From: Thermoanaerobaculia bacterium
GTDB taxonomy: Bacteria > Acidobacteriota > Thermoanaerobaculia > Gp7-AA8
Direction: 5' to 3'
Assembly: GCA_046594105.1 (NCBI GenBank)
Contig: JBKJQB010000010.1
Coordinates: 14,096-78,095, forward strand
Length of the DNA: 64,000 nucleotides
Shown: positions 16,214-58,566 of the stretch, piece after piece
Numbering within the stretch: the stretch's first letter is position 1
Layout of the letters: each line of letters opens with the position of its first letter
Made by a program: the position numbers and the translations under genes
The notes under the pieces: model-generated
Database searches by the model: none
Seen by the model: only the letters and a program-made list of their open reading frames with translations
What the model was told of the DNA's origin: nothing

Positions 16214-16351
16214 GGTGGGGAGAGGCGCAGCCGCCTCTCCTCGTCCGCCGCGCAGAAAGTCCCGGCGCATCCGGCTCTCGTTGGATTCCAGTTGCACATT
16301 TCAGGGCTGACGAGTAAAAGTCGTCGGTCCCAGGTCGCCGAAGAAGAGGAG

Positions 16352-31346: not shown

Positions 31347-31416
31347 CGCTAATCCGCACCTGCCAACGTACACGCTGGGAAGAGGGCCGGAAAGTACCGT
31401 TGGATGGAAAATGCCT

Positions 31417-46192: not shown

Positions 46193-48115
46193 ATGGTTGA
46201 GTCTTCAGCGATTCCATTCGAGCACCATGACTTACGAGGCGAACGCCTTCTGGTCCTGGCCCCCCATCCGGACGACGAGGTCATCGGATGCGGCGGAGTC
46301 CTGGCCCGCCATCTGGACCTCGGCTGCCCCGTACGGATCCTGATCGCCACCGACGGCTCGGAGGCCGATCCCGGCGAAGCCGATCGGGATGCCTACCGGG
46401 ACCGGCGGGAACAGGAGACGCGCCAGGGACTCGCTCTTCTGGGTGGAGTCTGCGAAATCACCTTCCTGCGCGCGCCCGATCGCGGTCTGGCCGCAGCAAG
46501 CCCCTCAGTGAGCGCCGCGATCGCGGGACTGTTACGAACCTTCCGTCCCGACCTGATCCTGCTCCCCAGCCCGATCGAGATTCATCCCGACCACTCGGCC
46601 CTCGCCCAATTATTCTGCCAGCTCATTCAGGGCGACCAGACCCTCGCCGCCGAGCTCGCCGTGACTCGAGTCGGTTTCTATGAGATCGGCCAGCCCCTTC
46701 GCCCCAATGTCCTCGTCGACATCACAGACGTCGCCGAACGGAAGTATGCGGCCATCTCTGCTCATGCCTCCCAGACCGCGCTGCACGACTACGTGGGCTT
46801 CACGCGAGGACTGAACGCCTACCGTGCTATGACCCTGACTGCCGATTGCTCTCGGGCCGAGGCGTACTGGGTGACCGACCTGCCGGAGTTGCGCACGCTG
46901 CCCTATTCCGCTCTCCAGCATCGAATGGGCGACGCTCGCGGCACCATCGAGGTCATCGGCGAAACCACGCCGATCAGCGTCATCATCCGGACCAGGAACC
47001 GGCCGGGCCTGTTGCGTGAGGCTCTCCAGTCCGTCCGGTCCAACGGCTATCCGGCAGAGATCGTGGTGGTCAATGACGGCGGTACGCCAGTCACCGCGGA
47101 AGACGTCACCCTCATCGTTCACGAGGAATCGCTGGGGCGCGCGGAAGCGGGAAATCGGGGCGTCCGCGAGGCAACGTCCGAGTTCGTCACTTTTCTGGAT
47201 GATGACGACCTCTACTATCCGGAGCATCTGCAGACCCTTTCCAACGCAGCGGCCGTCATGACCGGCGCGGCGTGCTACACCGACGCCGTCTCCGCATTCG
47301 TAGCCACCGGTACTTCGGGAAGTCTGGAAACGCGCTCCCGGCAACGGTTGTTCGCACGCGACTTTGACCCGGATCTGCTGCTGATCGACAACTACATCCC
47401 GCTACCGACAGTCATCGTGTCCCGGACGAATTTTCTCGACAGCGGCGGCTTCGACCCCGCGTTCGACCTTTTCGAAGACTGGGATTTCCTGATCCGGCTT
47501 TCCCGGCTGGGGCGGTTCACTCGGGTGCCGCGCATCACCTGCGAGATCCGTCACATCGAGGATAGCGGCTCGATCACTCTGACAGCTCCTGAAGGCTCCG
47601 CTCCATTCCGGAAGGCCAAGCTGCAGGTCTGGCAGAAACACGCCGCCCTCATCAACAATAATCTGATGGCCAGCGTGTTCGAAATGCAGAAGCGGGATGC
47701 TGGGCAAGTTTACGCTCAGAGGATCGAGGCAAGCGGGCTGGCCGCGTTTCACGAGCAGAGTGCCCGGCGCGTCGAGCGAGAGAAGCAGTCGCTGATCGAG
47801 CGCCTGCAGGAGCAGAACGAACATCTGAATGAAGCCGTCGTGCGCGGCAGCAACCTCGCTGGCCAGATCCGGGGCATGGAGATCCATCACGACGAGATGA
47901 GGGAAAGCCTGGCCCGATTGGAAAACGAGCGCAACGATCTCCTGGTCCGACTGGCCATCCTGGGTGACGCGCGGGTCGCTTTCGATGAGACCCAGCGGAC
48001 GATCGGGGTCCTCTACGCGGAGATCGCACGCCTTCAGAACCTCCTCGACACCATCTACGGCTCCCGCACGTGGAAGCTGCACAACGTGGTGCAACGAATC
48101 AAGGGCCAGGGTTGA
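46193..48115 (+). CDS. Fusion: PIG-L/LmbE-family N-deacetylase, GT2 glycosyltransferase, C-terminal coiled coil
   Basis: LmbE motif APHPDDEVIGCGG at the N-terminus. GT2 module from ~aa 270 (ISVIIRTRNRPGLLREALQSV...VVVNDGGT...FLDDDD DxD). Coiled-coil tail aa 520-640. Confidence 0.75.
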   Translation: MVESSAIPFEHHDLRGERLLVLAPHPDDEVIGCGGVLARHLDLGCPVRILIATDGSEADPGEADRDAYRDRREQETRQGLALLGGVCEITFLRAPDRGLAAASPSVSAAIAGLLRTFRPDLILLPSPIEIHPDHSALAQLFCQLIQGDQTLAAELAVTRVGFYEIGQPLRPNVLVDITDVAERKYAAISAHASQTALHDYVGFTRGLNAYRAMTLTADCSRAEAYWVTDLPELRTLPYSALQHRMGDARGTIEVIGETTPISVIIRTRNRPGLLREALQSVRSNGYPAEIVVVNDGGTPVTAEDVTLIVHEESLGRAEAGNRGVREATSEFVTFLDDDDLYYPEHLQTLSNAAAVMTGAACYTDAVSAFVATGTSGSLETRSRQRLFARDFDPDLLLIDNYIPLPTVIVSRTNFLDSGGFDPAFDLFEDWDFLIRLSRLGRFTRVPRITCEIRHIEDSGSITLTAPEGSAPFRKAKLQVWQKHAALINNNLMASVFEMQKRDAGQVYAQRIEASGLAAFHEQSARRVEREKQSLIERLQEQNEHLNEAVVRGSNLAGQIRGMEIHHDEMRESLARLENERNDLLVRLAILGDARVAFDETQRTIGVLYAEIARLQNLLDTIYGSRTWKLHNVVQRIKGQG

Positions 48116-49329
48116 GCACCGCCCTCCTCGTCTGTCCCGAGCCCCTCGGGCATCGACAGCCGGCAGGGATCGGCATCCGTTTCCTGGAAATGGCTCGCGT
48201 GCTACGGGAAGACGGCCATTCCATCATCCTGCTGACTCCAGATGGCGCCGGTGTGGCCGGATATCAGACCGCCACCCTCACGCCGCAGTCACTGCGGGAT
48301 TGCTCGGCACGCGCGGACGTCGCAGTGGTCCAGGGACACGTCGCCAATGAGCTCTGGGCGCATGGCTCGGTAATTCCCACGGTGGTCGATCTCTACGATC
48401 CGTTCATCGTCGAGAACCTGCACTACTACACCACTCGGGGGTCTGAGGTTTTTGCTCACGATCACCAGACCTTGATGGCGTCGCTGCGCCGGGGCGACCT
48501 TTTCCTCTGCGCCTCCTCCTCCCAGCGATTCTTCTATCTGGGGATGCTGCTGGCTGCCGGAAGACTGAACCCCATCAGTTTTGAATCGGACCCCACGCTG
48601 CAGTCGCTCCTTCGCCTTGCGCCATTCGGGGTCAGTCCGGCGATCCATCGCACCGGCGCGGAGCCGGACCGTACGGCCGTGCTCTTCGGAGGAATCTACG
48701 ACTGGTACGACCCGATTCTCGCCATCGATGCCGTTGTGCTGGCGCGGCGCGAGATCTCCGACCTGTCCATCACCTTCACCACGCATCCCAATCCATCCAG
48801 CACTCCGCAGAGCCGAACCGCCCAGGCCATCGCGCACGCCGACCGCCATGGGTACGGCCAGTTCGTGCACTTCCGGCCGTGGGTTCCCTACGAGGCCCGG
48901 GCTGAGTTCTACGCCGATTTCTCGGTTGCCCTGCTGACGTTTTCCCCCTCGCTGGAGACGGATCTCTCCATGCGGACACGCGTGTACGACTACCTCTGGG
49001 CAGGGCTTCCAGTGGTCACCAGCTCCGCGCCGGGAACGGATGAAATCATCGAACGATACCGGGCCGGTTCCGTCGTGAGCGGCGGATCCGCGTCAACTTT
49101 TGCCGAGGCTCTGGTGCGGACCATCGCCGATCGCCAATCGACGCAGCCAGGCCTCCGGGAGTTCGTCCGCGATCACCAGTGGGAGAAGACCCTTTCGCCG
49201 CTCGTTGAGTTCGTCCGCTCACCTCGAATGGATCCGACCAAACGGACTTTCGCGACAGCGTCGTCGCTTCCGAAACAGGCGGCCTCCGTCCTCCACCGGC
49301 TTCGCCGGCGCATGGGAGGCCGGTCCTGA
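48112..49329 (+). CDS. GT4-family (GT-B fold) glycosyltransferase
   Basis: TTG start overlaps the upstream stop (TTGA). C-terminal GT4 block YDYLWAGLPVVTSSAPGTDEII (E-x7-E region). Confidence 0.7.
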   Translation: MSTALLVCPEPLGHRQPAGIGIRFLEMARVLREDGHSIILLTPDGAGVAGYQTATLTPQSLRDCSARADVAVVQGHVANELWAHGSVIPTVVDLYDPFIVENLHYYTTRGSEVFAHDHQTLMASLRRGDLFLCASSSQRFFYLGMLLAAGRLNPISFESDPTLQSLLRLAPFGVSPAIHRTGAEPDRTAVLFGGIYDWYDPILAIDAVVLARREISDLSITFTTHPNPSSTPQSRTAQAIAHADRHGYGQFVHFRPWVPYEARAEFYADFSVALLTFSPSLETDLSMRTRVYDYLWAGLPVVTSSAPGTDEIIERYRAGSVVSGGSASTFAEALVRTIADRQSTQPGLREFVRDHQWEKTLSPLVEFVRSPRMDPTKRTFATASSLPKQAASVLHRLRRRMGGRS

Positions 49330-50522
49330 GCGATCCCCTGGTCGACATCATCATCGTCAACTGGAACAGCCGTCAGGACACCCTGGCCTGCCTGGAAGCT
49401 GCGGACGCGCAGCTTCGCGAGGTTCCAGGCTCCGTGATTACGGTGGTCGACAACGGCTCCACGGACGGAAGCATCGGCGCGATTGCAGAGCGCTATCCAC
49501 AGGTACGGCTCCTCCCTCTTGGTGAGAATCGCGGCTTCACCGGTGGGCTGGCCGCGGCGCTGGTCCGATCGCGGGCAACCTCGGTGATTTTTCTGAACAA
49601 CGATGCCATCCCTGAGCGGGGATGGCTTGCCGCCCTGGTCGGCGCGCTGGAGCGGTCGCCGCAGGACGTCATCTCCATCGGTGGAAAGATCGTCGATCTG
49701 TCCGGGCAGCTCATCGATTTCATCGGAGGAGCGCTTACCTTCGACGGGCACGCCTTCCAGTCTGGATTTCGCTACCCGCTGGCCTCACGCACCGGACCTT
49801 CGGCAGGTGATGAGATTCTCTTCGCCTGCGGAGGAAACATGATCTCTCGCCGCGAACCCTTCATGAGGCTGGGGGGATTCGACGACGACTACTTTGCGTA
49901 CCTGGAGGACGTGGACTTTGGCTGGCGCTCCTGGCTGTCCGGCTTCCGCGTTGTATACGAGCCCGCGGCTGTGGTCCGCCACGCATCGAGCGCCACCAGC
50001 CAGCGCCTTGGCGATTTTGAACGGGGTGTGTTGTTCGAGCGGAATGCCCTGCAGACCGCTCTGAAAAATTTCGAGGATCTCCGCGAGGCTGGCGGCTCCC
50101 TCTTCTTCTCGTTCCTTTCCCGTCTGCACCATTACGCAAGCACGCGGAATCCACGAGCCAGGGAACTGACCCGGCCGCCATTCGCGTCCGCGGCGCCGCC
50201 CCGCGCCGGCAGTTGGACCTCGCGAATCCGCAACAGGATCTTCGGCCGCCCCCCGCTGGCCACCATCGACGACCCGCTCACGGTGATGCAGTTCCGCGCG
50301 CTTCACTGGGTGGCGTCCAACACGCAGCGTATTGCGGAAAAGAGGCAGGAGGTTCAGCGCCGGCGTACCCGCAGCGATCGCGAGATCTTCGAGAAATTTC
50401 CCCTCTATCTCGTACCTACCTATCCCGGCGACGAAGGAATGATGGCGGGCGCTCTGTTCCAAATGCTTCTACCAGAGCTGCCCGCGGTCGAAAAAACGCT
50501 GGCCGATATCATGAAGACATGA
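49326..50522 (+). CDS. GT2-family glycosyltransferase
   Basis: Conserved N-terminus DIIIVNWNSRQDTLACLEA...VVDNGSTDGS and DxD (YLEDVD). The first canonical start (GTG 49434) would cut off the conserved beta-1 strand, so start is placed at CTG 49326 overlapping the GT4 stop (cTGA). N-terminus unresolved. Confidence 0.65.
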   Translation: MSDPLVDIIIVNWNSRQDTLACLEAADAQLREVPGSVITVVDNGSTDGSIGAIAERYPQVRLLPLGENRGFTGGLAAALVRSRATSVIFLNNDAIPERGWLAALVGALERSPQDVISIGGKIVDLSGQLIDFIGGALTFDGHAFQSGFRYPLASRTGPSAGDEILFACGGNMISRREPFMRLGGFDDDYFAYLEDVDFGWRSWLSGFRVVYEPAAVVRHASSATSQRLGDFERGVLFERNALQTALKNFEDLREAGGSLFFSFLSRLHHYASTRNPRARELTRPPFASAAPPRAGSWTSRIRNRIFGRPPLATIDDPLTVMQFRALHWVASNTQRIAEKRQEVQRRRTRSDREIFEKFPLYLVPTYPGDEGMMAGALFQMLLPELPAVEKTLADIMKT

Positions 50523-51412
50523 CCGGCAGTTCCTGGCGACAGCGCTTTCTGGTTCGCGGTGTCTTCTGGCGTCAGGGTCTGCGCTGGGGCATTCTCAACA
50601 TCCCGGTCTGGCTCGAACCGGCTGTCATCGCCTGGTGGTCGGCCTTCTTTCTGCTCTGGGGCCCGGGACGCCGAGGGGTCATGAGCAATCTTTCGGCAAT
50701 CAAACCGGGGTCGCTCGCCGTGAGCAACTTCTTCCGCTGCTACCGAGTCTTCTGGAACTACGCATGGACCATCTCCGACAACATCCGCCTCAAGGAACTG
50801 CGCGTGATCCCCGATTGGGAGTTTGAAGGATGGGAGCACTTTCAGGAGATGCAGTCCAGCACCGGCGCCATCCTCCTGACCGCCCACATGGGGAGCTACG
50901 ACCTCGGCGCGCAGCTGTTTTCCGAGATGTCCGCCCGGAATATCGTCATGGTACGCGCCCCGGAAATCGATCCAGAAACTCGGGCCTTCGAGGCGCAGCA
51001 GAGTGCTCGGGGAGTGCGGGTGGAGCTCAACACACAAGCTGGAGCGCTGGCCCTCGATCTCCTGGAAACGGTACGGGCCGGCGGCATCATCGCCATTCAG
51101 GGTGACCGCGTGACACCAGGCATCGGCTTTCTCCAGGCCCAGCTGTTCGGGAAATCTGCACCGATTCCAGCAGGACCGTTCGCTCTGGCCATGTCGGGAC
51201 GTGTCCCCATCTACCCGATTTTCGTCGTCCGCACCGGCCGCAGCCGCTATCGGCTCATCACCCGGCCACCGATCGAGGTTGTGCGCACACGGGATCGTGA
51301 CCAGGACTTTGCGCGCGCTGCCGAAAAATGGACGGTGGAACTTGAGGATCTCATCCGGAGGAGCTGGTTCCAATGGTTCCAGTTCGAACCATTTTCTGTG
51401 GAGCTGCGGTAG
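50519..51412 (+). CDS. Lysophospholipid/lipid-A-type acyltransferase (LPLAT, HtrB/LpxL/PatA-like)
   Basis: ATGA overlap with the upstream gene. N-terminal TM. HX4D acyltransferase motif LTAHMGSYDLG. ~297 aa. Confidence 0.6.
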   Translation: MTGSSWRQRFLVRGVFWRQGLRWGILNIPVWLEPAVIAWWSAFFLLWGPGRRGVMSNLSAIKPGSLAVSNFFRCYRVFWNYAWTISDNIRLKELRVIPDWEFEGWEHFQEMQSSTGAILLTAHMGSYDLGAQLFSEMSARNIVMVRAPEIDPETRAFEAQQSARGVRVELNTQAGALALDLLETVRAGGIIAIQGDRVTPGIGFLQAQLFGKSAPIPAGPFALAMSGRVPIYPIFVVRTGRSRYRLITRPPIEVVRTRDRDQDFARAAEKWTVELEDLIRRSWFQWFQFEPFSVELR

Positions 51413-51981
51413 TGAAAGTGATTCGCGACCAGCCCTACGCGCGATGGTTTCCTTCGCGAAGGCGTTTCGCACTGACGAAGATTCTTGCGTTCGCCTTACT
51501 CAGGACGCTCAGTTCCAACGGAGCGCCGGCACCATCCGATACGGCCGGAGGAAAGCGCATCGTCCTGGGCCTCGATCGTGATCACGACTCGTTCGAGATC
51601 TACTCGGCGGCCAGCCTTCACTTCGTGGTCCTCACCTGTTTCATGGCCTCCTTCATCCCGCTGCCCCCTCCACTCTCGATCCTGCTGGCGGCATTTTTTG
51701 AGCCTCTGCTCGCGCTGCTCCTCTGTTTTGCCGGCGCGCTGGTCATGTCCCGCTGGACCGCCCTCCGAGGTCGCAGCAGGGTGGGCTTCGCGCCTGGGAA
51801 CTCCGTCGTTCTCATGGCGCTGGCAATCGCGGCTTCGTTCTATCTCCTGTGGCGGAACGGATGGGCCGCGCCGGTCGGTGGATTGTTTTTGACGATCGTC
51901 ATCATTAACGCGATCGCTTCGATCGCCGTGCGCTTCCTGCAGCCCACGATCGCCAGATTGGAGGAACGGTGCGTCGCCTGA
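51412..51981 (+). CDS. Hypothetical polytopic membrane protein (~4 TM)
   Basis: GTG start overlapping the upstream TAG by 1 nt. Four hydrophobic helices. No recognisable family. Confidence 0.4.
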   Translation: MKVIRDQPYARWFPSRRRFALTKILAFALLRTLSSNGAPAPSDTAGGKRIVLGLDRDHDSFEIYSAASLHFVVLTCFMASFIPLPPPLSILLAAFFEPLLALLLCFAGALVMSRWTALRGRSRVGFAPGNSVVLMALAIAASFYLLWRNGWAAPVGGLFLTIVIINAIASIAVRFLQPTIARLEERCVA

Positions 51982-52724
51982 TTCTTGGCTTCGCCATCGC
52001 CGCACCAATTCTGCTGGTGGTGGTCTGGCCCTTCTCGAAGATTCTGGCGATCGGCATCCTGGCCGCCTCGCATGCGCTCCTCTTGTACCCGACCCTCCGC
52101 CCGAACGTCCAGTGGCTGGGGCCTGTGATCACGAGCTTCCGGCCGGAAGGAAAACAGGTTTGGCTCACCATCGACGATGGACCTTGCGATGACACAGAAG
52201 GGTTGCTCGATGAGCTGGAGACGCGCGGCGTGAAAGCAACGTTTTTCGTCAAGGGAAGCCTGGCCCGATTGCGACCGGACCTGATCACGATGACTCTGGC
52301 GCGGGGCCACGCCATCGCCAACCACTCCGATACGCATCCCGCCGCCTCGTTCTGGTGCCTTCCGCCCGGCAGGATCGCCCATGAAATCGATCGATGCAGC
52401 GAGGCCATCCGATCCATCGCCGGCCGCGACCCCCACCTGTTTCGCGCACCGGTAGGAATGAAGAATCCCGCCGTGCATCCGCTGCTTGCTCGCAGGAAGA
52501 TGCGACTGGTCGGCTGGAGCATCCGCGGCTTCGACTCCATCGCTCGCGAGGTCGCACCGGTGATCCGGAGAATCGTTCCCAGGGTTCGGCCCGGCTCCAT
52601 CATCGTGATGCACCAGGGTCGATCGATCTCCATCGCCTGCATCACCGGAGTGGTGGACGCGCTGATCTTGCAGGGCTACTCGTTCGTCATCCCGGCAGAG
52701 GATCGCCTGAACACCAGCAGGTAG
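51969..52724 (+). CDS. Polysaccharide deacetylase (CE4/NodB homology domain) with N-terminal TM anchor
   Basis: NodB motifs TIDDGP (MT1), HSDTHP (MT2), RAPVG (MT3). 251 aa. Overlaps the upstream gene by 13 nt. Confidence 0.8.
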   Translation: MRRLILGFAIAAPILLVVVWPFSKILAIGILAASHALLLYPTLRPNVQWLGPVITSFRPEGKQVWLTIDDGPCDDTEGLLDELETRGVKATFFVKGSLARLRPDLITMTLARGHAIANHSDTHPAASFWCLPPGRIAHEIDRCSEAIRSIAGRDPHLFRAPVGMKNPAVHPLLARRKMRLVGWSIRGFDSIAREVAPVIRRIVPRVRPGSIIVMHQGRSISIACITGVVDALILQGYSFVIPAEDRLNTSR

Positions 52725-53344
52725 TTGTTGAAGGGCGTCCTGCCCCAGAGCGGCGTGACCGTTGCCGTGAACTGGTCTTTTGGGAACATCTTCCGGATCG
52801 ACTCCTGCGTCGGGAATTCGAGCCTCTCTGCGCGCAGCCATCGAGTGGCCCGGGCAAAGGCTTCGGCCAGCCAGGTGACCCCGAATCGCCAGGACTCATC
52901 GCGGATCGCGTCGCGGAGAATGGCCACTCCGCCCGGCGCCACAGAATCGGCGACCTTGCGCAGAATGACTGCCTGCTCCTGCTGCGTAAAGTAATGAAGT
53001 ACATCCAGCATGACCACGCTGCCGGAAAAACCAGGAAGCTCCCGGATGTCGCCCTCCCGGAATTGCAGATGCTCACTGGGCCGAACCATCCGTTCGGCCA
53101 CGTCGATTTTGCGGCGGTCGTGGTCGATCCCCTCGATGGCAACAGTCAAACCATGTTCGCGCAGAAAAAAAGCGAGGACGCCGGCGCCGCATCCGAGATC
53201 AAGAATCGGGTTTCGCACGTCTCGGAGATTTTCCAGCACAGCGCGATAAACGGGATCGGTGCGAATCTTGGTACGGACGTACGAGCGCAGAAAGTGTGAC
53301 GGATATCGGGCTGCCACCTTTGCTGCGATGTCGTCGGAGCTCAC
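52676..53344 (-). CDS. Class I SAM-dependent methyltransferase
   Basis: Motif I ILDLGCGAGVLAFFL and the post-I acidic residue (GIDHD). 222 aa. Its 3' end overlaps the convergent deacetylase gene by 49 nt. Confidence 0.75.
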   Translation of the reverse strand: MSSDDIAAKVAARYPSHFLRSYVRTKIRTDPVYRAVLENLRDVRNPILDLGCGAGVLAFFLREHGLTVAIEGIDHDRRKIDVAERMVRPSEHLQFREGDIRELPGFSGSVVMLDVLHYFTQQEQAVILRKVADSVAPGGVAILRDAIRDESWRFGVTWLAEAFARATRWLRAERLEFPTQESIRKMFPKDQFTATVTPLWGRTPFNNYLLVFRRSSAGMTNE

Positions 53345-53775
53345 GGAGAGAGATGCTCGATCAAGTCGATCAGCTCCGGAAGGTTGAAGGGCTTCGGGAG
53401 AATTGCCGAAACACCCATCTGCAGCACTGCTTGCGGGTCGATCCGCAGATGAGCGGAGACCACGATGATCGGAGTTTTGCCGAGTTGGCCCGTTTCCTTG
53501 AGCCGTGCCAGAAAGTCCCAGCCGTTCACGTCCGGCATGGCCAGATCCAGCAGAACCACGTGCGGCTGGTGGAGCGTCAACGCCCGATGCCCCTCCCCCC
53601 CGTCTCCCGCCAGCAGAACCTGAAAACCATGCTGGCGCAGCGCCGCTGCGAGCATTCCTCGGAGGGGAAGATCGTCGTCGATCACAAGAATCCGCTTGCG
53701 ATCGACATCGGCGACCTGCTTCGCCCCTGCGCTGTTCTGAGGCTCCATCTGACTCATCGAAAGGCTCGTTCCCAC
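53341..53775 (-). CDS. Single-domain CheY-like response regulator (receiver only)
   Basis: ILVIDDD...VVLLDLAMPDVNG...PIIVVSA has the phospho-acceptor Asp and acidic pocket. No output domain. Confidence 0.8.
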   Translation of the reverse strand: MGTSLSMSQMEPQNSAGAKQVADVDRKRILVIDDDLPLRGMLAAALRQHGFQVLLAGDGGEGHRALTLHQPHVVLLDLAMPDVNGWDFLARLKETGQLGKTPIIVVSAHLRIDPQAVLQMGVSAILPKPFNLPELIDLIEHLSP

Positions 53776-53809: not shown

Positions 53810-54835
53810 TCAGAAGAGGTCGGAGTCGCCCATCGTGTAATAAAGCCGATCCCGCATCATCGCCACGGCATCCGCCACCTCGAAAGGAACACACATCAGG
53901 GAGAGGTCCTGCGGTTCGGGCCCCGTCATGAAACCCAGATCGTCGAGGACCGCGCTGAACCACTGCGGGTGCCGCGGAAACCAGCCCTCAACCTGATCGA
54001 CAGGATATCCGGGCACCACATGCCGGAGCATGACCGAGACGGCCGCCGGAACCTCAGGATCGAACAGCGCGTCTCCCCACACCAGGCTCCTGCCCAGCAC
54101 TCGAAAGACCGACCAGCCGACCAGTCGACGCCACCGGCGGATGGCGATCACGAAGTAGGTAGTATCCGGACAATCGAAGTAGCGCCATTGAACATAGCGG
54201 GCATCGCGTCGCACCAGGACACCGTAGGCCGGGCGAACGCGATCGAAGAATTCATCGAGCTCGCTGCCGCTCTGTCTCAGAAGCTCCAGGCGGTACCCCT
54301 TCGCTTTGCGCGCCCAGCGTGAAAGCTTCGGCACCGGGTTTCGGGAGAGATCCCGTGCCCGCCAGGCCACCGGCGCGACGCGGTCACTCCTCAGGAAGCG
54401 CAGCGAAAACCGCTGAATGTTCGCGACGTTGAATCCATAGTTGAAGGCAACCTTCTGCTCACAGAATCTCTGGTAGAAGTCGAGGGCAGTTCTGCCAAGA
54501 ACGCTGCTCGGGCCGCGTCCTAAATGCCGCACCGAAGGCCGGGTCATGGTGTCGCCGATCTGATGCACCGACAGGAGCTGGTTGTCCCACTGCAAGGGTA
54601 CGGCGTAACCCGCGTAGTGACCCGCCAGCGTGCCGGCTTCGTCGAACGTGAGGCTGATGTGCCCCGCGCCAAACGGATCCTGTTCGTACTTCCAGCGGAA
54701 GTGATCAGTGCTTCGGGGAGCATGAGGAAAGCAGCGTGCGAACAGATCGAGGATGGCCGGAACATCACGTGCTTCAAAGCCGCGGGTGATGAGGGCTGGA
54801 GGACCGCCCGGCGCATCGACGGATTCAGCGGGCAT
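53810..54835 (-). CDS. FemAB/BioF2-like GNAT-fold acyltransferase (Acetyltransf_6-like)
   Basis: ~340 aa with ...FFDRVRPAYGVLVRRDARYVQWRYFDCP... typical of the FemAB-like GNAT family found in polysaccharide loci. Assignment from fold-level motif memory only. Confidence 0.5.
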   Translation of the reverse strand: MPAESVDAPGGPPALITRGFEARDVPAILDLFARCFPHAPRSTDHFRWKYEQDPFGAGHISLTFDEAGTLAGHYAGYAVPLQWDNQLLSVHQIGDTMTRPSVRHLGRGPSSVLGRTALDFYQRFCEQKVAFNYGFNVANIQRFSLRFLRSDRVAPVAWRARDLSRNPVPKLSRWARKAKGYRLELLRQSGSELDEFFDRVRPAYGVLVRRDARYVQWRYFDCPDTTYFVIAIRRWRRLVGWSVFRVLGRSLVWGDALFDPEVPAAVSVMLRHVVPGYPVDQVEGWFPRHPQWFSAVLDDLGFMTGPEPQDLSLMCVPFEVADAVAMMRDRLYYTMGDSDLF

Positions 54836-56321
54836 GCGTCGGCTCGACGGAGCGGATCGGTCGGAATTCGTGCGGAGATCCAGCTCGCCGTTTTGCCACG
54901 ATCCGGATGGAACCCGACCCAACCAGCAGAGGATCGGGAAGGACCCGCAGCACAGCTCGCACCATTCCTGTCACAGCAGGCCATTGCGACGAAGCGAGGT
55001 GGCGAAGAAATTTGTGATCCCGGTACTCCATCTCCGGGCCAACTGTCAGGACCTCAAAGCCGGAGTGCTCGAGGAGCTCAATCAACGCCGATCGCGAATA
55101 CAGAATGGCGTGGGTGCGAAAACTCTGCGCCATCCATCGTCTGGCCGAGAACAGGAAGAGGAGACTCTCCGTATCAAAGGTACTCAGCAAGAGAACCCCG
55201 CCCGGCTTGAGCAGCTCCTTGATCCGCGACAGCGCATCGTGGGGATCGGGAAGCGTTTCGAACACATGATGAAGAGTGACCGCATCGAACGCCGGCCCGG
55301 TGTTGACGAATTTCGCGAGCGTTGAACAATAGACCTCCAGCCCTCGCGAGCGTGCAGAACGTGCAGCAGCAGCCGCTCGATCGATCCCCACGTACTCGAA
55401 GTCACGGGAGGCCGCATTTCCGAAGCTGCCATCTCGAACTCCGATCTCCAGCACCCTGGCCCTCGGGTTCAAATGACGGCGCAACGTCAATAGCCTCCGT
55501 CCGCTCGTCTTCTCGCGTGCGCTGGTGGTGGAACCGGTCTCCTCTGGATCGCGCTCCACCAGAGCCGAGCGAAGCTGGCGATGCACCGGAATGCCCTCGT
55601 CCTCACTGACGAGCTGGCTGCGATAGCGGCACTTGCAACGGCTGCAGGCACGGATCACATCCCCCGGAATCTGCGCACAGGTCCAGACCTCCGAGGAGAA
55701 ACAGATCGGGCATCTGCGCGGCGCGCGGTAGCTGTTCCTCCGATCAAGGATTCGTATGGTCAGCGCCGAGAGCACCTGCCCCAGGCTTTCCATGACCGAA
55801 AGACGCCGGCCCGCTGCGCCTTCGGCCAGATTCAATCGATCCACTCGAAATCCATACTTGTTCGCAAGGTAGGCGGCTTCGAGCCCGAAGCCATTTTTCA
55901 AACGCGACTCGCCGATGATGAATCGGGCGGCCTCCGCCGAGAACGCCTTCAAGCCCACCGTGGGATCCGGCAGTACGGGAACCAACAGCCACCTTAGAAG
56001 CAAGGGGGCGGATCCGTAGGTCTGGCGCGCGCCGAAGATCACATCCGCTGCTTCTGATTGGATGAGCGCAATGGCGTCGCCCACGGCGTCCGTAGCAAGA
56101 GCCTCGGTTTCATTCAGGATGACGATCACGTTGCCTTTCGCGTCCGGCCAGGCCGCACGGACAGCGGCACCCGGAGATCCACCATCACCGCCACCGACAT
56201 CGATGAGCTGAAAGGTCAGACCGGTGGCCTGGAGATAGCGTTCGAGAGTCTCCCCGGCCTTCATCGATCCCGCTGATCCGGAAACGGACGCGATGATCAG
56301 AGTGACCTCCGGCGACTTCAT
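54825..56321 (-). CDS. Three-module fusion: uncharacterized N-terminal domain (~200 aa), CxxC...CxxC zinc ribbon, class I SAM-dependent methyltransferase
   Basis: Zn ribbon CPICFSSEVWTCAQIPGDVIRACSRCKC. MTase motif I VLEIGVRDGSFG and motif II/III (VTLHHVFETL...GGVLLLSTFD). The N-terminal domain was not recognised. Confidence 0.6.
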   Translation of the reverse strand: MKSPEVTLIIASVSGSAGSMKAGETLERYLQATGLTFQLIDVGGGDGGSPGAAVRAAWPDAKGNVIVILNETEALATDAVGDAIALIQSEAADVIFGARQTYGSAPLLLRWLLVPVLPDPTVGLKAFSAEAARFIIGESRLKNGFGLEAAYLANKYGFRVDRLNLAEGAAGRRLSVMESLGQVLSALTIRILDRRNSYRAPRRCPICFSSEVWTCAQIPGDVIRACSRCKCRYRSQLVSEDEGIPVHRQLRSALVERDPEETGSTTSAREKTSGRRLLTLRRHLNPRARVLEIGVRDGSFGNAASRDFEYVGIDRAAAAARSARSRGLEVYCSTLAKFVNTGPAFDAVTLHHVFETLPDPHDALSRIKELLKPGGVLLLSTFDTESLLFLFSARRWMAQSFRTHAILYSRSALIELLEHSGFEVLTVGPEMEYRDHKFLRHLASSQWPAVTGMVRAVLRVLPDPLLVGSGSIRIVAKRRAGSPHEFRPIRSVEPTHAR

Positions 56322-57346
56322 TGGATCATTCTAGCTTTTGCGAACGCCGCGATCGAAACCCCACTCCTCCGGTCGACGATCCGCGCATACAACACCTCCC
56401 CCTGATAGCAGGCCCAGATGTCTTCTGGAATCGACACGGTTCGGGAGCTCGGGAAGAAGCCTGCCGCCGTATCGAACTCCGGAAATGGCGACGCCTCGAT
56501 CACCACCTCCTGGTCCGGCAGACGGATTCCGTCATCGGGGAAAAGGGCGAATACGGGCGTCGCGGCCAAAGGGCGTTCGAAGCGTTTCAGCAGCATTCCG
56601 GCAGAACCGTTCCACTTCTCGAGGTAGCGCGCCTCGGAGACCGCGTAAGAAGAGGCCGCCTCCTGCGAGCCGGCCGCACTCTGGTTGTAGAGATGACGGA
56701 CTTTGGCATCAGGGACGTAGAGGATGTCTCCCCGGATTCGCCGGAGGAAGTCATGCTCCTCGAAGTACAGCGGATACCGCTCGTCGAACCCACCGGCGGC
56801 ATCGAACACGGTCGCGCGAACAGCCATCACCGCTCCGGACAACGTGGGAACGACCGTGGGGACTGTCCGTGACCAGAAGGCGATCCTGCTCCGAGTTCGG
56901 CGCCGATCTCGGCTCCCGGCCCAACGACGCCATCGGCTCGCGGCAACGCGATCGAGAACTTGCGCTCGAGTATGAAGCTCCGCCGGCGGGAGCATCCACT
57001 GCAGCGCCTCGTCCCAGAAGAGAGCCGGTCCGGCCACCGCGGCGCCGGCGGCGAGCAGCCCATCGATGGATCCGGGTGCAAACCGCACGTCCGGGTTCGT
57101 GATCAGAAGGGTCTCCCCATCGCACCATCTTCGCCCTGCGTTGATCGCTCCGGCATAACCAAGGTTCCGATCAGCAGTCAGAATCTTGCCGGCGCCGCGA
57201 AGCGCCTCGGTCTCTGCCGGATCAACGCTGTTGTCAACGATCACCACTTGTAGCGAAGCGGAGTGCGCGGCCTGCGCGGTGGCGATCGCGTCCAGCGCCA
57301 GTCGCGCCGAGCGATAGTTGACGACGAGAAGGGAGCAGCTCGGCAT
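56318..57346 (-). CDS. GT2-family glycosyltransferase
   Basis: CSLLVVNYRSARLALDAI...VVIVDNSVDP...DxD-like (TNPDV). ~342 aa. 4-nt overlap with the downstream gene and 1-nt overlap with the upstream gene. Confidence 0.75.
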   Translation of the reverse strand: MPSCSLLVVNYRSARLALDAIATAQAAHSASLQVVIVDNSVDPAETEALRGAGKILTADRNLGYAGAINAGRRWCDGETLLITNPDVRFAPGSIDGLLAAGAAVAGPALFWDEALQWMLPPAELHTRAQVLDRVAASRWRRWAGSRDRRRTRSRIAFWSRTVPTVVPTLSGAVMAVRATVFDAAGGFDERYPLYFEEHDFLRRIRGDILYVPDAKVRHLYNQSAAGSQEAASSYAVSEARYLEKWNGSAGMLLKRFERPLAATPVFALFPDDGIRLPDQEVVIEASPFPEFDTAAGFFPSSRTVSIPEDIWACYQGEVLYARIVDRRSGVSIAAFAKARMIQ

Positions 57347-58566
57347 CAACGCTCGACGGCGGCGGTCTCCGCGAGAGCCGGCACCCACCGATGATCGACA
57401 GAAATCAGGCCCACTTCGTAACGTTCTCCCCGGATTGAAAACGCCGGCCGGATGTCGCGCCGATCGAACACGGAAACGGCCGTTTCGTCGCCGGCGAACG
57501 CGATGATCGAATAGTCGCCCCGATTGAGAGGAACATCGTGAAGCTGGACCACCAGCTCGTACTCGTTCCGGCCCGTCAGCGGCGCCACCCCGTCGCCGTG
57601 CGTTCCCACGGCAAAGCACTGAAGGTCATCGGCGGAGCGATGAACCCCGACGATGACGTGAATTGGCTGCCACGCCTGCTCAGAGTCGATTCTGAGTCGC
57701 ACGTGAATGTCCTCGCCCCGCTCGAAGACATCGCGGGGAACACCGCTCCGATCGCAGACCACGATCTCTCGAAACCGGACCGGGGTCAGCGCCCTCTCTG
57801 CCTCCGCCGCCCCCTCGTTGGCCGGACGATCACGATCGCGCTGCAGGAGAAAGGTCTCGTATTCGTGAACGACGTCGAGCGACGGCCCGTAGCGCATCAC
57901 TCGTCCATGATCGAGCCACAGGGCCCGGCGGCAGATCGAGCTGACGTGGTAGAGCGCGTGCGAACAGAACAGAATTGTCTTCCCCTGCTCCTGGAACTCC
58001 CGGATTTTGTCCACACACTTTTTCTGGAAGTGGCCGTCGCCGACGGCGAGAGCTTCGTCGATGATCAGAATCGAGGGGTTGGCGTTGACGGCAACAGAGA
58101 ACGCCAGGCGCATGTACATCCCGGAGGAGTAGGTCTTCACAGGCCGGTCCAGAAAGTCGCCCAGCTCCGAGAACTCCAGGATCGCCGGCAGCCTCTCCCG
58201 CAATTCTGCCGATGAGAGTCCGAGGATGGTGGCGTTGAGCGACGCGTTGTCCCGGCCCGTAAACTCGGGATGAAAACCGGTTCCCAGCTCCAGAATCGAG
58301 GCGATCGTCCCGTCGGTATGCAACGTTCCGCTCGTCTGTCTGGTGACGTTGCAGAGCAACTTGAGCAGCGTGCTCTTGCCCGCTCCGTTCTGCCCGATGA
58401 TCCCGATCGTTTCGCCGCGCTCAACCTCGAATGAGACGTCATCGAGAGCAGGAAAGACCGTGTGCCGGTTTCGTCCGGTGATCGTCTCCAGCAGCCGATC
58501 GATAGGCCGCGGATAAACGTCATATTGCTTGGTCAGCCTGTCGGCGCGAACGGCGATGTTCATCAA
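57346..58566 (-). CDS. Wzt/TagH-like polysaccharide-export ABC transporter ATP-binding protein with C-terminal carbohydrate-binding-type domain
   Basis: Walker A GQNGAGKST, ABC signature YSSGMYMRLAF, Walker B ILIIDEALAVGD, H-loop CSHAL, plus a ~160-aa C-terminal beta-rich extension as in Wzt. No Wzm permease gene is adjacent. Confidence 0.85.
   Translation of the reverse strand: MMNIAVRADRLTKQYDVYPRPIDRLLETITGRNRHTVFPALDDVSFEVERGETIGIIGQNGAGKSTLLKLLCNVTRQTSGTLHTDGTIASILELGTGFHPEFTGRDNASLNATILGLSSAELRERLPAILEFSELGDFLDRPVKTYSSGMYMRLAFSVAVNANPSILIIDEALAVGDGHFQKKCVDKIREFQEQGKTILFCSHALYHVSSICRRALWLDHGRVMRYGPSLDVVHEYETFLLQRDRDRPANEGAAEAERALTPVRFREIVVCDRSGVPRDVFERGEDIHVRLRIDSEQAWQPIHVIVGVHRSADDLQCFAVGTHGDGVAPLTGRNEYELVVQLHDVPLNRGDYSIIAFAGDETAVSVFDRRDIRPAFSIRGERYEVGLISVDHRWVPALAETAAVER

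What the first reader, a model, noticed from the sequence alone, without database searches (positions are those of the whole stretch)
46193..48115. Single polypeptide fusing a PIG-L/LmbE de-N-acetylase to a GT2 glycosyltransferase and a ~120-aa coiled coil
The canonical LmbE zinc-site motif (APHPDDEVIGCGG) sits at the N-terminus. From ~aa 270 there is a complete GT2 domain with DxD. The last ~120 residues are heptad-rich. Deacetylase and transferase steps are normally separate enzymes. A fused enzyme suggests substrate channelling, i.e. deacetylate an N-acetyl-hexosamine then extend it.
Basis: seen in the sequence. Interest (0 to 1): 0.5.

Follow-up and report, generated by a model that had tools for sequence, protein, structure and literature searches.

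The report
Deacetylase–glycosyltransferase with coiled-coil ruler

Summary
ORF 46193-48115 (+) encodes 640 aa: an intact PIG-L/LmbE de-N-acetylase (aa 19-245), an intact GT2 glycosyltransferase (aa 261-485) and a ~135-residue helix (aa 489-623) ending in an invariant S-R-T-W-K-L-H motif. It is not a frameshift artefact. More than 120 full-length homologs at 54-79% identity share the layout. About 125 of the best 150 representative clusters (50% identity) span both domains in one stretch. Carriers include Acidobacteriota, Desulfobacterales, Nitrosomonas, Comamonadaceae, Bacteroidia and cyanobacteria.

The context points away from a GPI- or mycothiol-like pathway. The fusion is translationally coupled to GT4 and GT2 genes. 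In other taxa those modules are fused after the coiled coil, giving PIG-L-GT2-coil-GT-GT. A Wzt ABC-transporter ATPase with a carbohydrate-binding module often lies nearby. A tandem-GNAT N-acyltransferase lies directly upstream in several phyla and is fused to the protein in one relative.

This is the published signature of a capped, ABC-transporter-dependent glycan system. My best reading (confidence ~0.5) is a chain terminator and ruler: GT2 adds a terminal HexNAc, PIG-L removes the acetyl, and the GNAT re-acylates the amine. I found no characterised example. This is a new variant of a known kind, of moderate interest, and the evidence is entirely in silico.

The parts
46193..48115 (+). The finding: a 640-aa PIG-L / GT2 / coiled-coil protein. 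A 647-aa member of the same 90%-identity cluster is annotated 'PIG-L family deacetylase' in a Thermoanaerobaculia MAG.
   Evidence: ORF; Pfam; conservation; AF2 model; public name.
46247..46927 (+). PIG-L/LmbE (CE14) de-N-acetylase domain, aa 19-245. Zinc/catalytic motifs H25-P-D-D-E29 and H131-P-D-H134.
   Evidence: PF02585 at 95.6 bits. Motifs invariant. Nearest solved relatives are diacetylchitobiose deacetylase 8bgn (E 5e-26), TT1542 and BshB.
46973..47647 (+). GT2 (GT-A fold) glycosyltransferase domain, aa 261-485. Motifs N294-D-G, DxD D336-D339 and E428-D429.
   Evidence: PF00535 at 63.8 bits and PF10111. Motifs invariant. Nearest solved relative is 9jma (E 3e-25), listed as PglI, a GalNAc5-diNAcBac-PP-undecaprenol glucosyltransferase, in the sequence search and as AvpGT in the fold search.
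47657..48061 (+). Extended helix, aa 489-623: a predicted coiled coil and the putative molecular ruler.
   Evidence: AF2 gives a single helix with a low-confidence hinge at aa 586-596. Heptad registers. Length varies in 7-residue steps among 106 homologs. It is the only extended coiled-coil-like segment among 14 locus proteins.
48044..48112 (+). Conserved C-terminal motif (…LLDTIYGSRTWKLHNVVQRIKGQG). S624, T626, W627, K628, L629 and H630 are invariant. It is a putative docking site for a partner or the membrane.
   Evidence: Invariant columns. The motif recurs at 36-43% identity and in some long forms. The tail after it is 11 aa in 92 of 106 homologs. The hydrophobic moment is only 0.27, so a membrane helix is not supported.
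48112..49329 (+). GT4 glycosyltransferase. Its TTG start overlaps the fusion's stop (TTGA). Putative polymerase component.
   Evidence: Pfam Glyco_trans_1_4. The NTGA overlap is in frame in 24 of 30 loci. The equivalent module is fused after the coiled coil in Inhella.
49326..50522 (+). Second GT2 (GT2b). Its likely CTG start overlaps the GT4 stop (CTGA). Putative polymerase component.
   Evidence: Pfam. No canonical start codon lies before the domain begins. The junction census gives CTGA in 14 loci, ATGA in 7 and GTGA in 1.
50519..51412 (+). LpxL/PatA-family (PF03279) acyltransferase with an ATGA overlap onto GT2b. Present only in the ortholog clade.
   Evidence: Pfam and NCBIfam. Start codon. 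Absent outside the orthologs.
51373..51981 (+). Small protein with about 4 TM segments and no family match. Detected only in the ortholog clade, and not in all of its loci.
51969..52724 (+). CE4 polysaccharide deacetylase (NodB-type). Present only in the ortholog clade.
   Evidence: PF01522 at 90.5 bits; NCBIfam.
53810..54835 (-). Tandem-GNAT N-acyltransferase, 341 aa. It is the partner gene that sits directly beside the fusion most often across phyla. It is proposed to re-acylate the amine freed by PIG-L.
   Evidence: Pfam Acetyltransf_9. AF2 pLDDT 84. Fold matches to Eis-type GNATs, N-myristoyltransferases and MAB_4324. It lies directly upstream of the fusion in L022, L037, L041, L042, L046, L065 and L075. 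It is fused to PIG-L-GT2-coil in P0199.
54825..56321 (-). 498-aa protein with a SAM methyltransferase at aa 275-425 and an N-terminal ~270 aa with no family match.
   Evidence: A methyltransferase occupies the same slot in L022.
56318..57346 (-). Third GT2 (GT2c). Its start overlaps the wzt stop. It is conserved next to the GNAT in clade 2 and in Desulfobacterales.
57346..58566 (-). Wzt: ABC-transporter ATPase with a C-terminal Wzt_C carbohydrate-binding module (aa 262-388).
   Evidence: PF00005 and PF14524 (34.8 bits, cut-off 30.4). The NBD resembles TarH (6jbh, E 1e-67) and two 404-residue 'ABC transporter' chains, 8dku and 7k2t (E ~1e-65). The CBM is conserved in clade 2.
52676..53757 (-). 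Small SAM methyltransferase (52676-53344) and a receiver-domain response regulator (53341-53757). Both belong to the convergent operon. The methyltransferase was detected only in the ortholog clade; the regulator was not searched for in other loci.

Best explanation
**Shown.** The gene encodes a genuine three-part protein: an N-terminal zinc-dependent PIG-L/LmbE de-N-acetylase, a GT2 (GT-A fold) glycosyltransferase, and a ~135-residue coiled coil that ends in a conserved short motif. Both catalytic centres carry all their expected residues.

**Inferred from gene context and from relatives with extra fused domains.** It belongs to a cytoplasmic, ABC-transporter-dependent (Wzm/Wzt-type) polysaccharide assembly line.

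**Proposed mechanism, by analogy.** It is the chain-terminating 'ruler' protein of that line.
1. The translationally coupled GT4 and GT2b, probably with GT2c, polymerise the glycan on a lipid carrier at the membrane.
2. When the chain is long enough to reach the catalytic head held at the far end of the coiled coil, the GT2 domain adds a terminal N-acetyl-hexosamine.
3. The PIG-L domain removes its N-acetyl group.
4. The partner tandem-GNAT puts a different acyl group on the freed amine.
5. The carbohydrate-binding module on Wzt recognises this cap and releases only capped chains for export.

The donor sugar, the acyl group, the order of steps 2-4 and the final acceptor (lipid A-core, protein or other) are unknown.
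For: **Real and catalytically competent.**

**Hallmark pair defined in PMC11231755.**
- An extended coiled coil is 'a characteristic marker' of the terminator protein, with the terminating enzyme at the distal end.
- A CBM is attached to the transporter's NBD.
- Here the fusion has the only extended coiled-coil-like segment of 14 locus proteins, and Wzt carries Wzt_C.

**Same layout as WbbB and K. pneumoniae O7 ORF6 in longer relatives.** The order is PIG-L, GT2, coil, then polymerase-type modules:
- GT2+GT4 in Inhella proteolytica
- GT2+GT2 in Acidovorax Root219 and Giesbergeria anulus
- RgpF+HAD in Nitrosomonas
- WbsX+GT4+GT2 in a Thermodesulfobacteriota MAG

The N-terminal module is constant while the downstream modules vary, as expected for a shared cap on different polymers.

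**Coupling in the window.** The same modules are separate genes joined by NTGA stop/start overlaps.

**Co-location.**
- A Wzt homolog (at least 35% identity) lies within 10 kb in all 11 fully flanked ortholog loci and in 10 of 19 fully flanked non-orthologous loci.
- These Wzt ORFs are mostly 390-480 aa, often with an adjacent 6-TM Wzm.
- In Acidobacteriota clade 2 everything is one co-directional operon: Wzt(+CBM), MT, hypothetical, GT2c, GNAT, fusion, GT4, GT2b.
- The CBM is 34-41% identical between the two Acidobacteriota clades.

**GNAT link.**
- It lies directly upstream on the same strand in Acidobacteriota, Delta- and Betaproteobacteria and Bacteroidia.
- It is fused to PIG-L-GT2-coil in P0199 (hhalign E 2.7e-64, 41% identity).
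- It has a tandem-GNAT fold like Eis, NMT and MAB_4324, which from my own knowledge are acyl-CoA-dependent N-acyltransferases that act on amines.

**Terminal-residue preference.**
- The nearest solved PIG-L relative is diacetylchitobiose deacetylase.
- From established knowledge, characterised PIG-L enzymes (PIG-L, MshB, BshB, BtrD, Orf2*, Dac) all act on a terminal non-reducing GlcNAc.

**Ruler-like length behaviour.** Spacer length is constrained (127-137 residues in 95 of 106 homologs) and changes in heptad steps.
Against: - Everything is in silico. No substrate, product or oligomeric state has been measured.
- No wzm permease gene is in the window or next to wzt in the Acidobacteriota loci.
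- The association is frequent but not universal.
  - Wzt is found in 10 of 19 fully flanked non-orthologous loci.
  - A detectable GNAT lies directly upstream in 10 of 39 loci.
- CBM similarity is not detectable in Nitrosomonas, Inhella or Bacteroidia, so a shared cap across all carriers is unproven.
- The C-terminal tail has a low hydrophobic moment (0.27), so a WbdD-like amphipathic membrane anchor is not supported.
- In P0199 the GNAT sits at the C-terminal end of the coil, opposite the PIG-L head. That is awkward for a simple parallel-coil model in which the GNAT acts immediately after PIG-L.
- The locus also encodes two methyltransferases that could make a methyl cap instead.
- The AF2 helix has low confidence at aa 586-596 and could be hinged.
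- There is no sequence homology to WbdD or WbbB. The argument is architectural analogy.
Confidence: 0.5

Rival explanations
1. Polymerase-associated in-chain editing. The GT2 domain is one of the polymerising transferases. PIG-L deacetylates every (or many) newly added HexNAc residues, giving a GlcN-rich or N-acyl-HexN polymer. This would be a cytoplasmic analogue of PNAG or chitosan editing, or of NDST in heparan sulfate. The coiled coil only scaffolds the multi-enzyme complex.
For: - The same context evidence applies: Wzt, GT4/GT2b coupling and the GNAT partner.
- The ortholog clade has a further CE4 deacetylase and an acyltransferase in the operon, suggesting extensive N/O-acyl editing.
- In P0199 the GNAT is at the other end of the coil. 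That is easier to accept if the coil is a scaffold rather than a ruler.
Against: - In the published systems, an extended coiled coil together with a CBM-bearing Wzt goes with terminators.
- The N-terminal module stays constant while the polymerase modules vary widely, including RgpF and WbsX. That is hard to reconcile with it being part of the repeat-unit polymerase.
- From my own knowledge, characterised PIG-L enzymes act on terminal residues rather than internal ones.
Confidence: 0.25
2. Primer or adaptor module. The PIG-L-GT2 head works at the reducing end on the common lipid-linked primer (for example Und-PP-GlcNAc). It deacetylates and extends the primer before variable polymerases take over.
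For: - A constant module combined with variable polymerases would also be expected for an enzyme acting on a universal primer.
- The nearest solved GT2 relative (9jma, named in the sequence search as PglI) acts on an undecaprenyl-PP-linked oligosaccharide.
Against: - No coiled coil is known or needed for adaptor enzymes.
- The protein has no TM or clear amphipathic membrane segment.
- In the long forms, the head is separated from the polymerase modules by the coil.
Confidence: 0.12
3. This is a substrate-channelling enzyme of a small-molecule or glycolipid pathway (GPI-, PIM-, mycothiol- or bacillithiol-like). It deacetylates GlcNAc-inositol or GlcNAc-lipid and then glycosylates it, and the coiled coil merely oligomerises the enzyme.
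For: - PIG-L family membership.
- A GT4 lies immediately downstream. From my own knowledge, the GlcNAc transferase in the PIG-A/PIG-L, MshA/MshB and BshA/BshB pairs is also a GT4.
- A PatA/LpxL-like acyltransferase is in the operon, with a weak hit to the PIM acyltransferase model at 48 bits against a cut-off of 209.
Against: - Scores are far below the BshB and MshB equivalog cut-offs.
- The acyltransferase is absent outside the ortholog clade.
- The partners conserved across phyla are Wzt-CBM, GNAT and polymerase-type GTs.
- The ORFs I scanned against Pfam gave no inositol or thiol pathway families. This was not an exhaustive search.
Confidence: 0.08
4. Artefact: two separate genes joined by a frameshift or mis-assembly around aa 250-270.
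For: None was found. The inter-domain linker (aa 246-260) is only a short low-confidence loop.
Against: - More than 120 independent full-length homologs from different assemblies have the same continuous reading frame.
- About 125 of 150 representative clusters span the junction in one aligned stretch.
- 80 genomic loci from many phyla confirm the arrangement.
Confidence: 0.01

Closest known systems
WbdD (E. coli O8/O9a, K. pneumoniae O3/O5) and ORF7 of K. pneumoniae O4 (GT137): stand-alone chain terminators with a coiled-coil ruler
   Same: - Catalytic head at the N-terminus and an extended coiled coil towards the C-terminus.
- Separate polymerase proteins.
- A Wzt with a CBM in the same system (PMC11231755).
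   Different: - There is no sequence homology.
- The head here is a deacetylase plus GT2, rather than a methyltransferase-kinase or a Kdo transferase.
- A WbdD-type amphipathic membrane helix is not evident.
- Ruler function has not been tested.
WbbB (K. pneumoniae O12 / Raoultella terrigena) and ORF6 of K. pneumoniae O7: terminator, coiled coil and two polymerase GT modules in one polypeptide
   Same: - Long relatives of the window protein have exactly this order: PIG-L-GT2 head, coiled coil, then two or three GT modules.
- The window version is the split form, with the GT genes translationally coupled downstream.
   Different: The terminator chemistry differs: beta-Kdo or methyl-phosphate in the known systems, against a proposed HexNAc addition with de-N-acetylation here. 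The window protein itself lacks the fused polymerase modules.
Characterised PIG-L/LmbE (CE14) enzymes: PIG-L, MshB, BshB, BtrD, teicoplanin Orf2*, archaeal diacetylchitobiose deacetylase
   Same: - Same fold and the same zinc/catalytic motifs.
- The 'add GlcNAc, deacetylate, then substitute the amine' logic is established knowledge. In teicoplanin biosynthesis Orf2* is followed by an N-acyltransferase, and in mycothiol biosynthesis MshB is followed by MshC and the tandem-GNAT MshD.
   Different: - Those enzymes are stand-alone single-domain proteins acting on small molecules or lipids.
- This one is fused to a GT2 and a coiled coil and sits in a polysaccharide export locus.
- It falls below the BshB and MshB equivalog cut-offs.
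PglI (C. jejuni GalNAc5-diNAcBac-PP-undecaprenol beta-1,3-glucosyltransferase) and related GT2 enzymes (WrtF, K4CP)
   Same: The GT2 domain is most similar to these lipid-linked-glycan GT-A transferases (E 3e-25; 27-28% identity).
   Different: Donor and acceptor specificity cannot be inferred at this level of identity. PglI has no deacetylase or coiled coil.
[quoted passage not shown]
   Same: A bifunctional enzyme that removes the N-acetyl group of a HexNAc in a glycan so that the amine can receive a different substituent.
   Different: The folds are unrelated. NDST acts on internal residues in the Golgi lumen and is not fused to a glycosyltransferase.

Membership tests
PIG-L / LmbE de-N-acetylase family (Pfam PF02585; CAZy CE14) | Profile match above the curated threshold | tested here: met
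   95.6 bits against a cut-off of 28.2, aa 20-143.
PIG-L / LmbE de-N-acetylase family (Pfam PF02585; CAZy CE14) | Zinc-binding and catalytic motifs (A/P)HPDD… and HxxH | tested here: met
   H25-P-D-D-E29 and H131-P-D-H134 are present and invariant in 42 homologs.
PIG-L / LmbE de-N-acetylase family (Pfam PF02585; CAZy CE14) | Rossmann-like LmbE fold | tested here: met
   The AF2 model aligns to Dac, TT1542, BC1534 and BshB with target-normalised TM 0.68-0.78.
PIG-L / LmbE de-N-acetylase family (Pfam PF02585; CAZy CE14) | De-N-acetylase activity on a GlcNAc-containing substrate | not testable with these tools
   Requires an enzyme assay.
Bacillithiol BshB1/BshB2 and mycothiol MshB equivalogs | Score above the NCBIfam equivalog cut-off | tested here: not met
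   BshB1 83.9 vs 182.5; BshB2 64.7 vs 195.25; MshB 23 vs 224.35.
GT2 glycosyltransferases (Pfam PF00535; GT-A fold) | Profile match above threshold plus the DxD motif and catalytic acid | tested here: met
   63.8 bits against 23.3. D336-D339 and E428-D429 are invariant. The fold matches PglI/AvpGT and WrtF.
Capped, ABC-transporter-dependent glycan systems (coiled-coil terminator plus CBM-bearing Wzt) | [quoted passage not shown] | tested here: met
   AF2 helix at aa 489-623. Heptad pattern and 7-residue length steps. It is the only such protein in the locus. Oligomeric state was not tested.
Capped, ABC-transporter-dependent glycan systems (coiled-coil terminator plus CBM-bearing Wzt) | Wzt nucleotide-binding protein with a C-terminal carbohydrate-binding module in the locus | tested here: met
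   Window 57346-58566 has ABC_tran plus Wzt_C (34.8 bits against 30.4). Long-form Wzt lies near the fusion in other phyla.
Capped, ABC-transporter-dependent glycan systems (coiled-coil terminator plus CBM-bearing Wzt) | Wzm permease partner | tested here: inconclusive
   Not found in the window or beside wzt in the Acidobacteriota loci. Present next to wzt in L041, L046, L053, L057, L065 and L075.
Capped, ABC-transporter-dependent glycan systems (coiled-coil terminator plus CBM-bearing Wzt) | Polymerising GT modules associated with the coiled-coil protein | tested here: met
   GT4 and GT2b are translationally coupled downstream. The equivalent modules are fused after the coil in relatives. Polymerase activity itself was not tested.
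Capped, ABC-transporter-dependent glycan systems (coiled-coil terminator plus CBM-bearing Wzt) | A non-reducing terminal cap that stops polymerisation and is required for export; chain length set by coil length | not testable with these tools
   Needs glycan structure, mutants and coil-length variants.
WbdD / WbbB protein families (homology) | Sequence or domain homology to the WbdD kinase/methyltransferase or the WbbB GT99 module | tested here: not met
   No such Pfam or NCBIfam families, or PDB relatives, were detected. The resemblance is architectural only.

The most novel reading that the evidence does not exclude
PIG-L-GT2-coiled coil together with the tandem GNAT defines a previously undescribed glycan chain-terminating chemistry. 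The cap would be an 'N-acyl-swapped' amino sugar: HexNAc is added, de-N-acetylated, then re-acylated, possibly with a longer acyl chain given the N-myristoyltransferase-like fold of the GNAT. Wzt carbohydrate-binding modules would read this cap. The system would be used by environmental Acidobacteriota, Desulfobacterales, nitrifiers and Comamonadaceae on top of quite different polymer backbones.
Probability: 0.35. Interest if true: 0.7.

Novelty: new variant of a known kind. Interest (0 to 1): 0.5.

Why it matters
Only a handful of cap chemistries are known for glycans exported by ABC transporters: methyl, methyl-phosphate, and alpha- or beta-Kdo. All come from enteric pathogens. If the terminator reading is right, three things follow.

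- **A new cap.** It would add an amine or N-acyl-amino-sugar cap made by a deacetylase-transferase head.
- **Wider reach of the mechanism.** It would show that the coiled-coil ruler principle operates in abundant but little-studied soil and sediment phyla.
- **A recognisable marker.** PIG-L + GT2 + coil + tandem GNAT + long Wzt would mark such systems in genomes.

It would also correct the uninformative public annotation 'PIG-L family deacetylase'. Several cultured carriers make the hypothesis directly testable: Inhella proteolytica, Acidovorax sp. Root219, Giesbergeria anulus and Nitrosomonas spp.

If the reading is wrong, the protein is still a widespread, uncharacterised bifunctional CE14-GT2 enzyme of polysaccharide biosynthesis.

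Tried and rejected
1. **Frameshift or mis-assembly.** Rejected on conservation.
2. **Membrane protein.** No TM segment was found; the maximum 19-residue Kyte-Doolittle mean is 1.3.
3. **WbdD-like amphipathic C-terminal anchor.** The hydrophobic moment is only 0.27, so I do not claim it.
4. **Thiol-cofactor or GPI-type pathway membership.** Scores fall below the equivalog cut-offs.
5. **LpxL-like acyltransferase, CE4 deacetylase, small TM protein, GGDEF and small methyltransferase as core partners.** They were detected with the fusion only in the ortholog clade, where the whole region is syntenic, including TIM, SecG and biotin carboxylase. They are therefore not informative.
6. **wzm in the window.** Searched by tblastn with four Wzm proteins and by a TM scan; none was found.
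7. **A shared CBM across all phyla.** Similarity holds within Acidobacteriota and weakly in two Desulfobacterales/Deltaproteobacteria loci (L043, L047), and is not detectable elsewhere. I withdrew the stronger claim.
8. **Literature.**
   - Seven full-text searches found no description of this architecture. They covered LmbE or PIG-L with glycosyltransferase fusion, O-antigen or coiled coil, CE14 with GT2, Thermoanaerobaculia with glycosyltransferase, and chain termination with CBM.
   - The most relevant census of terminator chemistries (Mann, Kimber & Whitfield 2019, Glycobiology 29:822) is not in the held library. I cannot exclude that it lists this domain combination.
9. **GNAT sequence search against the PDB.** It found nothing, so a structure prediction and fold search were needed.


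Full report

Yes. The window has a single uninterrupted ORF at 46193..48115 on the + strand (640 aa, ATG start).

Pfam places a PIG-L domain at aa 20-143 (95.6 bits, cut-off 28.2). It places a GT2 domain from aa 262 (PF00535 63.8 bits, cut-off 23.3), with PF10111 extending the match to aa 442. There is also a weak generic coiled-coil hit at aa 523-619.

The second PIG-L motif, HPDH, is at aa 131-134. The GT2 signatures are N294-D-G, D336-D339 and E428-D429.

AlphaFold2 with a 42-sequence alignment gives pLDDT 84 and pTM 0.71. The model has:
- an LmbE-type domain at aa 19-245
- a short low-confidence linker at aa 246-260
- a GT-A domain at aa 261-485
- one long helix at aa 489-623, followed by a short helix at aa 625-636

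There is no transmembrane segment.

**2. Could it be an artefact?**

No. The large protein search returned 1729 hits. The best 120 all cover 99-100% of the query at 54-79% identity. They are 608-674 aa long (one is 824 aa) and have the same Pfam content.

A 647-aa member of the same 90%-identity cluster is annotated 'PIG-L family deacetylase' in a Thermoanaerobaculia MAG.

In the exhaustive search of 1.84 billion representatives, 1015 clusters score below 1e-30. By my count, about 125 of the best 150 align across both catalytic domains in a single stretch.

All catalytic residues of both domains are invariant in 42 aligned homologs. So is a C-terminal motif: S624, T626, W627, K628, L629 and H630. 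Both halves are therefore under selection as working enzymes.

**3. Where else does it occur?**

A scan of one genome per GTDB species returned 80 loci. They include:
- orthologs in Thermoanaerobaculia (47-60% identity)
- a second Acidobacteriota clade (36-43% identity)
- Holophagales
- Deltaproteobacteria and Desulfobacterales
- Nitrosomonas
- Rhodocyclales
- Comamonadaceae, including the cultured Acidovorax sp. Root219, Inhella proteolytica and Giesbergeria anulus
- Thiorhodococcus
- Bacteroidia

A 2232-aa Planktothrix protein also carries related modules.

The fusion is therefore common, although I found no paper describing it.

**4. Gene context**

Within the ortholog clade the whole region is syntenic, including TIM, SecG and biotin carboxylase. 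Conservation there says little about function.

The informative comparison is with distant carriers.

*Window layout.* The fusion heads a + strand operon: fusion, GT4, GT2b, LpxL-like acyltransferase, small 4-TM protein, CE4 deacetylase. A convergent - strand operon runs: Wzt (with Wzt_C carbohydrate-binding module), GT2c, methyltransferase, tandem GNAT, response regulator, methyltransferase.

*Acidobacteriota clade 2.* Both halves form one co-directional operon: PKD protein, radical SAM, Wzt(+Wzt_C), methyltransferase, hypothetical, GT2c, GNAT-like, fusion, GT4, GT2b, GT2.

*Other phyla.* In Deltaproteobacteria, Betaproteobacteria and Bacteroidia, the GNAT homolog ends 7-110 nt before the fusion's start on the same strand.

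*Genes that do not travel with the fusion.* The acyltransferase, CE4, small TM protein, GGDEF and small methyltransferase are absent outside the ortholog clade.

*Counts.*

| Locus set | Wzt homolog (≥35% identity) within 10 kb |
|---|---|
| Fully flanked ortholog loci | 11 of 11 |
| Fully flanked non-orthologous loci | 10 of 19 |

A detectable GNAT lies directly upstream in 10 of 39 loci with enough upstream sequence.

The neighbouring Wzt ORFs are mostly long forms of 390-480 aa. A 6-TM Wzm is often adjacent.

**5. Rosetta-stone fusions**

Two kinds of larger relatives tie the neighbours to the fusion.

*P0199.* This 1121-aa protein carries PIG-L (aa 125-248), GT2 (aa 359-558), a coiled-coil-like stretch (aa 582-680) and then a full-length homolog of the window's GNAT at aa 786-1121 (hhalign probability 100%, E 2.7e-64, 41% identity).

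*Long forms.* Many relatives continue past the coiled coil into more glycosyltransferase modules:

| Organism / locus | Modules after PIG-L – GT2 – coil |
|---|---|
| Inhella proteolytica (L075) | GT2, GT4 |
| Acidovorax Root219 (L067) | GT2, GT2 |
| Giesbergeria anulus (L083) | GT2, GT2 |
| L037 | GT2, GT2 |
| Nitrosomonas (L053) | RgpF, HAD |
| Thermodesulfobacteriota MAG (L059) | WbsX, GT4, GT2 |

The Inhella protein is in effect the window's first three gene products in one chain.

In the window those genes are joined by stop/start overlaps: TTGA for fusion/GT4, CTGA for GT4/GT2b and ATGA for GT2b/acyltransferase. The same NTGA junctions recur in 24 of 30 and 22 of 30 loci for the first two junctions.

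**6. The coiled coil**

- My heptad heuristic finds an extended coiled-coil-like segment only in the fusion, among 14 locus proteins.
- Two heptad registers dominate, which is consistent with a register shift.
- The distance between a GT2-end anchor and the C-terminal motif was measured in 106 homologs. Values cluster at 127, 130, 133, 134 and 137 residues.
- Most values, including the four commonest, fall on two arithmetic series with step 7: 120/127/134/141 and 123/130/137/144. This is the behaviour expected when indels must preserve a heptad repeat. These counts are not phylogenetically independent.
- A coiled-coil-like stretch follows the GT2 domain in nearly every locus surveyed.

**7. 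The GNAT partner**

It has no sequence relative in the PDB.

Its AF2 model (pLDDT 84, pTM 0.83) is a tandem GNAT. The nearest structures are Eis-type Enterococcus proteins (2hv2, 2i00), N-myristoyltransferases, the MAB_4324 tandem GNAT and the clavulanate tandem GNAT.

From established knowledge, Eis, NMT and MshD-type tandem GNATs use acyl-CoA to acylate free amines. That is the reaction expected to follow a de-N-acetylase.

**8. Interpretation**

Kelly et al. 2024 (PMC11231755) summarise the defining features of 'capped' ABC-transporter-dependent glycan assembly:
- polymerase modules either fused after the coil (WbbB, O7 ORF6) or encoded separately (WbdD with WbdA, O4 ORF7)
- a carbohydrate-binding module on Wzt that recognises the cap and licenses export

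The window locus and its relatives reproduce this architecture feature by feature, with PIG-L-GT2 in the terminator position.

The head stays constant while the polymerase modules vary. That fits a common cap placed on different polymers.

The nearest solved PIG-L relative, diacetylchitobiose deacetylase, acts on the non-reducing GlcNAc. From my own knowledge, so do the other characterised family members.

I therefore propose this sequence:
1. GT2 adds a terminal HexNAc.
2. PIG-L removes the acetyl group.
3. The tandem GNAT re-acylates the amine.
4. The Wzt CBM reads the cap.

Shown: the anatomy, the conservation, the co-location and the fusions. Inferred: membership of a Wzt-dependent glycan pathway. 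Hypothesised by analogy: the terminator and ruler role, the order of reactions and the nature of the cap.

**9. Caveats**

- No wzm is present in the window or beside wzt in the Acidobacteriota loci.
- The Wzt and GNAT associations are frequent but not universal.
- CBM similarity is clear between the two Acidobacteriota clades (34-41% identity, E down to 1e-26). It is weak in two Desulfobacterales/Deltaproteobacteria loci (L043, L047) and undetectable in Nitrosomonas, Inhella and Bacteroidia.
- The conserved C-terminal tail is not strongly amphipathic (µH 0.27). It may be a protein-docking site rather than a membrane anchor.
- In P0199 the GNAT is at the opposite end of the coil from PIG-L. 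That does not sit comfortably with a rigid parallel ruler.
- The locus has two methyltransferases that could provide an alternative cap.
- The AF2 helix has a low-confidence segment at aa 586-596.

The main rival reading is that the protein is a polymerase-associated in-chain editing enzyme and the coil is only a scaffold.

**10. Comparison with known systems and novelty**

The two catalytic domains are clear members of CE14/PF02585 and GT2/PF00535. The protein is not a BshB or MshB equivalog. It has no homology to WbdD or WbbB, so the similarity is architectural and functional.

I found no characterised PIG-L-GT2 fusion and no report of a deacetylase-containing terminator.

I rate this as a new variant of a known kind. 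The system type is known, with an undescribed head chemistry and an informative, widely distributed domain signature.

Interest is moderate at 0.5. The protein family is common and already carries a generic annotation. The terminator hypothesis is specific, testable in cultured organisms, and would extend a mechanism known mainly from enteric pathogens.

Noticed in passing
window 49209-49434 (GT4 stop at 49327-49329; CTG at 49326): GT2b has no ATG, GTG or TTG between the opening of its frame and codon 49434, although its GT2 domain starts at about 49344. An in-frame CTG overlaps the GT4 stop (CTGA). Across 30 loci this junction is CTGA in 14, ATGA in 7 and GTGA in 1. CTG initiation, or termination-reinitiation, therefore looks conserved. 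Gene callers truncate this gene in L001 and L002.
   Followed up: partly
P0199 (1121 aa, ENA contig of 1.16 Mb), aa 786-1121: A relative fuses the tandem GNAT to the C-terminus of PIG-L-GT2-coiled coil, forming a Rosetta-stone link. The GNAT family ends in a conserved LYYTxGDSDLF motif.
   Followed up: yes
window 57346-58566 and 58674-62645; L022 137-5838: No wzm permease gene lies next to wzt in the window or in the Acidobacteriota loci. Instead, a large PKD-repeat protein is conserved upstream of wzt in both Acidobacteriota clades. Clade 2 also has a radical-SAM/SPASM gene there.
   Followed up: partly
window 54825-56321 (-): The 498-aa methyltransferase has an N-terminal ~270 aa with no family match. 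One ortholog has a weak GT2 hit on record. It might be a second bifunctional modifying enzyme, or the real cap-forming enzyme.
   Followed up: no
window 50519-52724 (+): An LpxL/PatA-family acyltransferase, a family-less protein with about 4 TM segments, and a NodB-type CE4 deacetylase extend the operon in the ortholog clade only. This suggests extra acyl editing of the glycan in this lineage.
   Followed up: partly
L069, L071, L072, L074 (Thermoanaerobaculia / Acidobacteriota): Split forms exist. A stand-alone PIG-L of 252-266 aa (42-47% identical to the fusion's domain) sits next to a GT2 homolog on the opposite strand. In L072 a Wzt is also nearby.
   Followed up: no
window 45134-46141 (-) and 29679-31718 (-): A GGDEF diguanylate cyclase is divergently transcribed from the fusion operon in all orthologs. 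A separate GGDEF-EAL protein lies 15 kb away. c-di-GMP control of this glycan is possible, but the adjacency is not conserved outside the ortholog clade.
   Followed up: partly
window 16292-19693 (+) and 7800-9290 (+): There is a 1133-aa protein with 8 DUF11 repeats. There is also an 8-TM PMT_2 (GT-C, ArnT-like) glycosyltransferase. Both are elsewhere in the window and were not linked to the finding.
   Followed up: no
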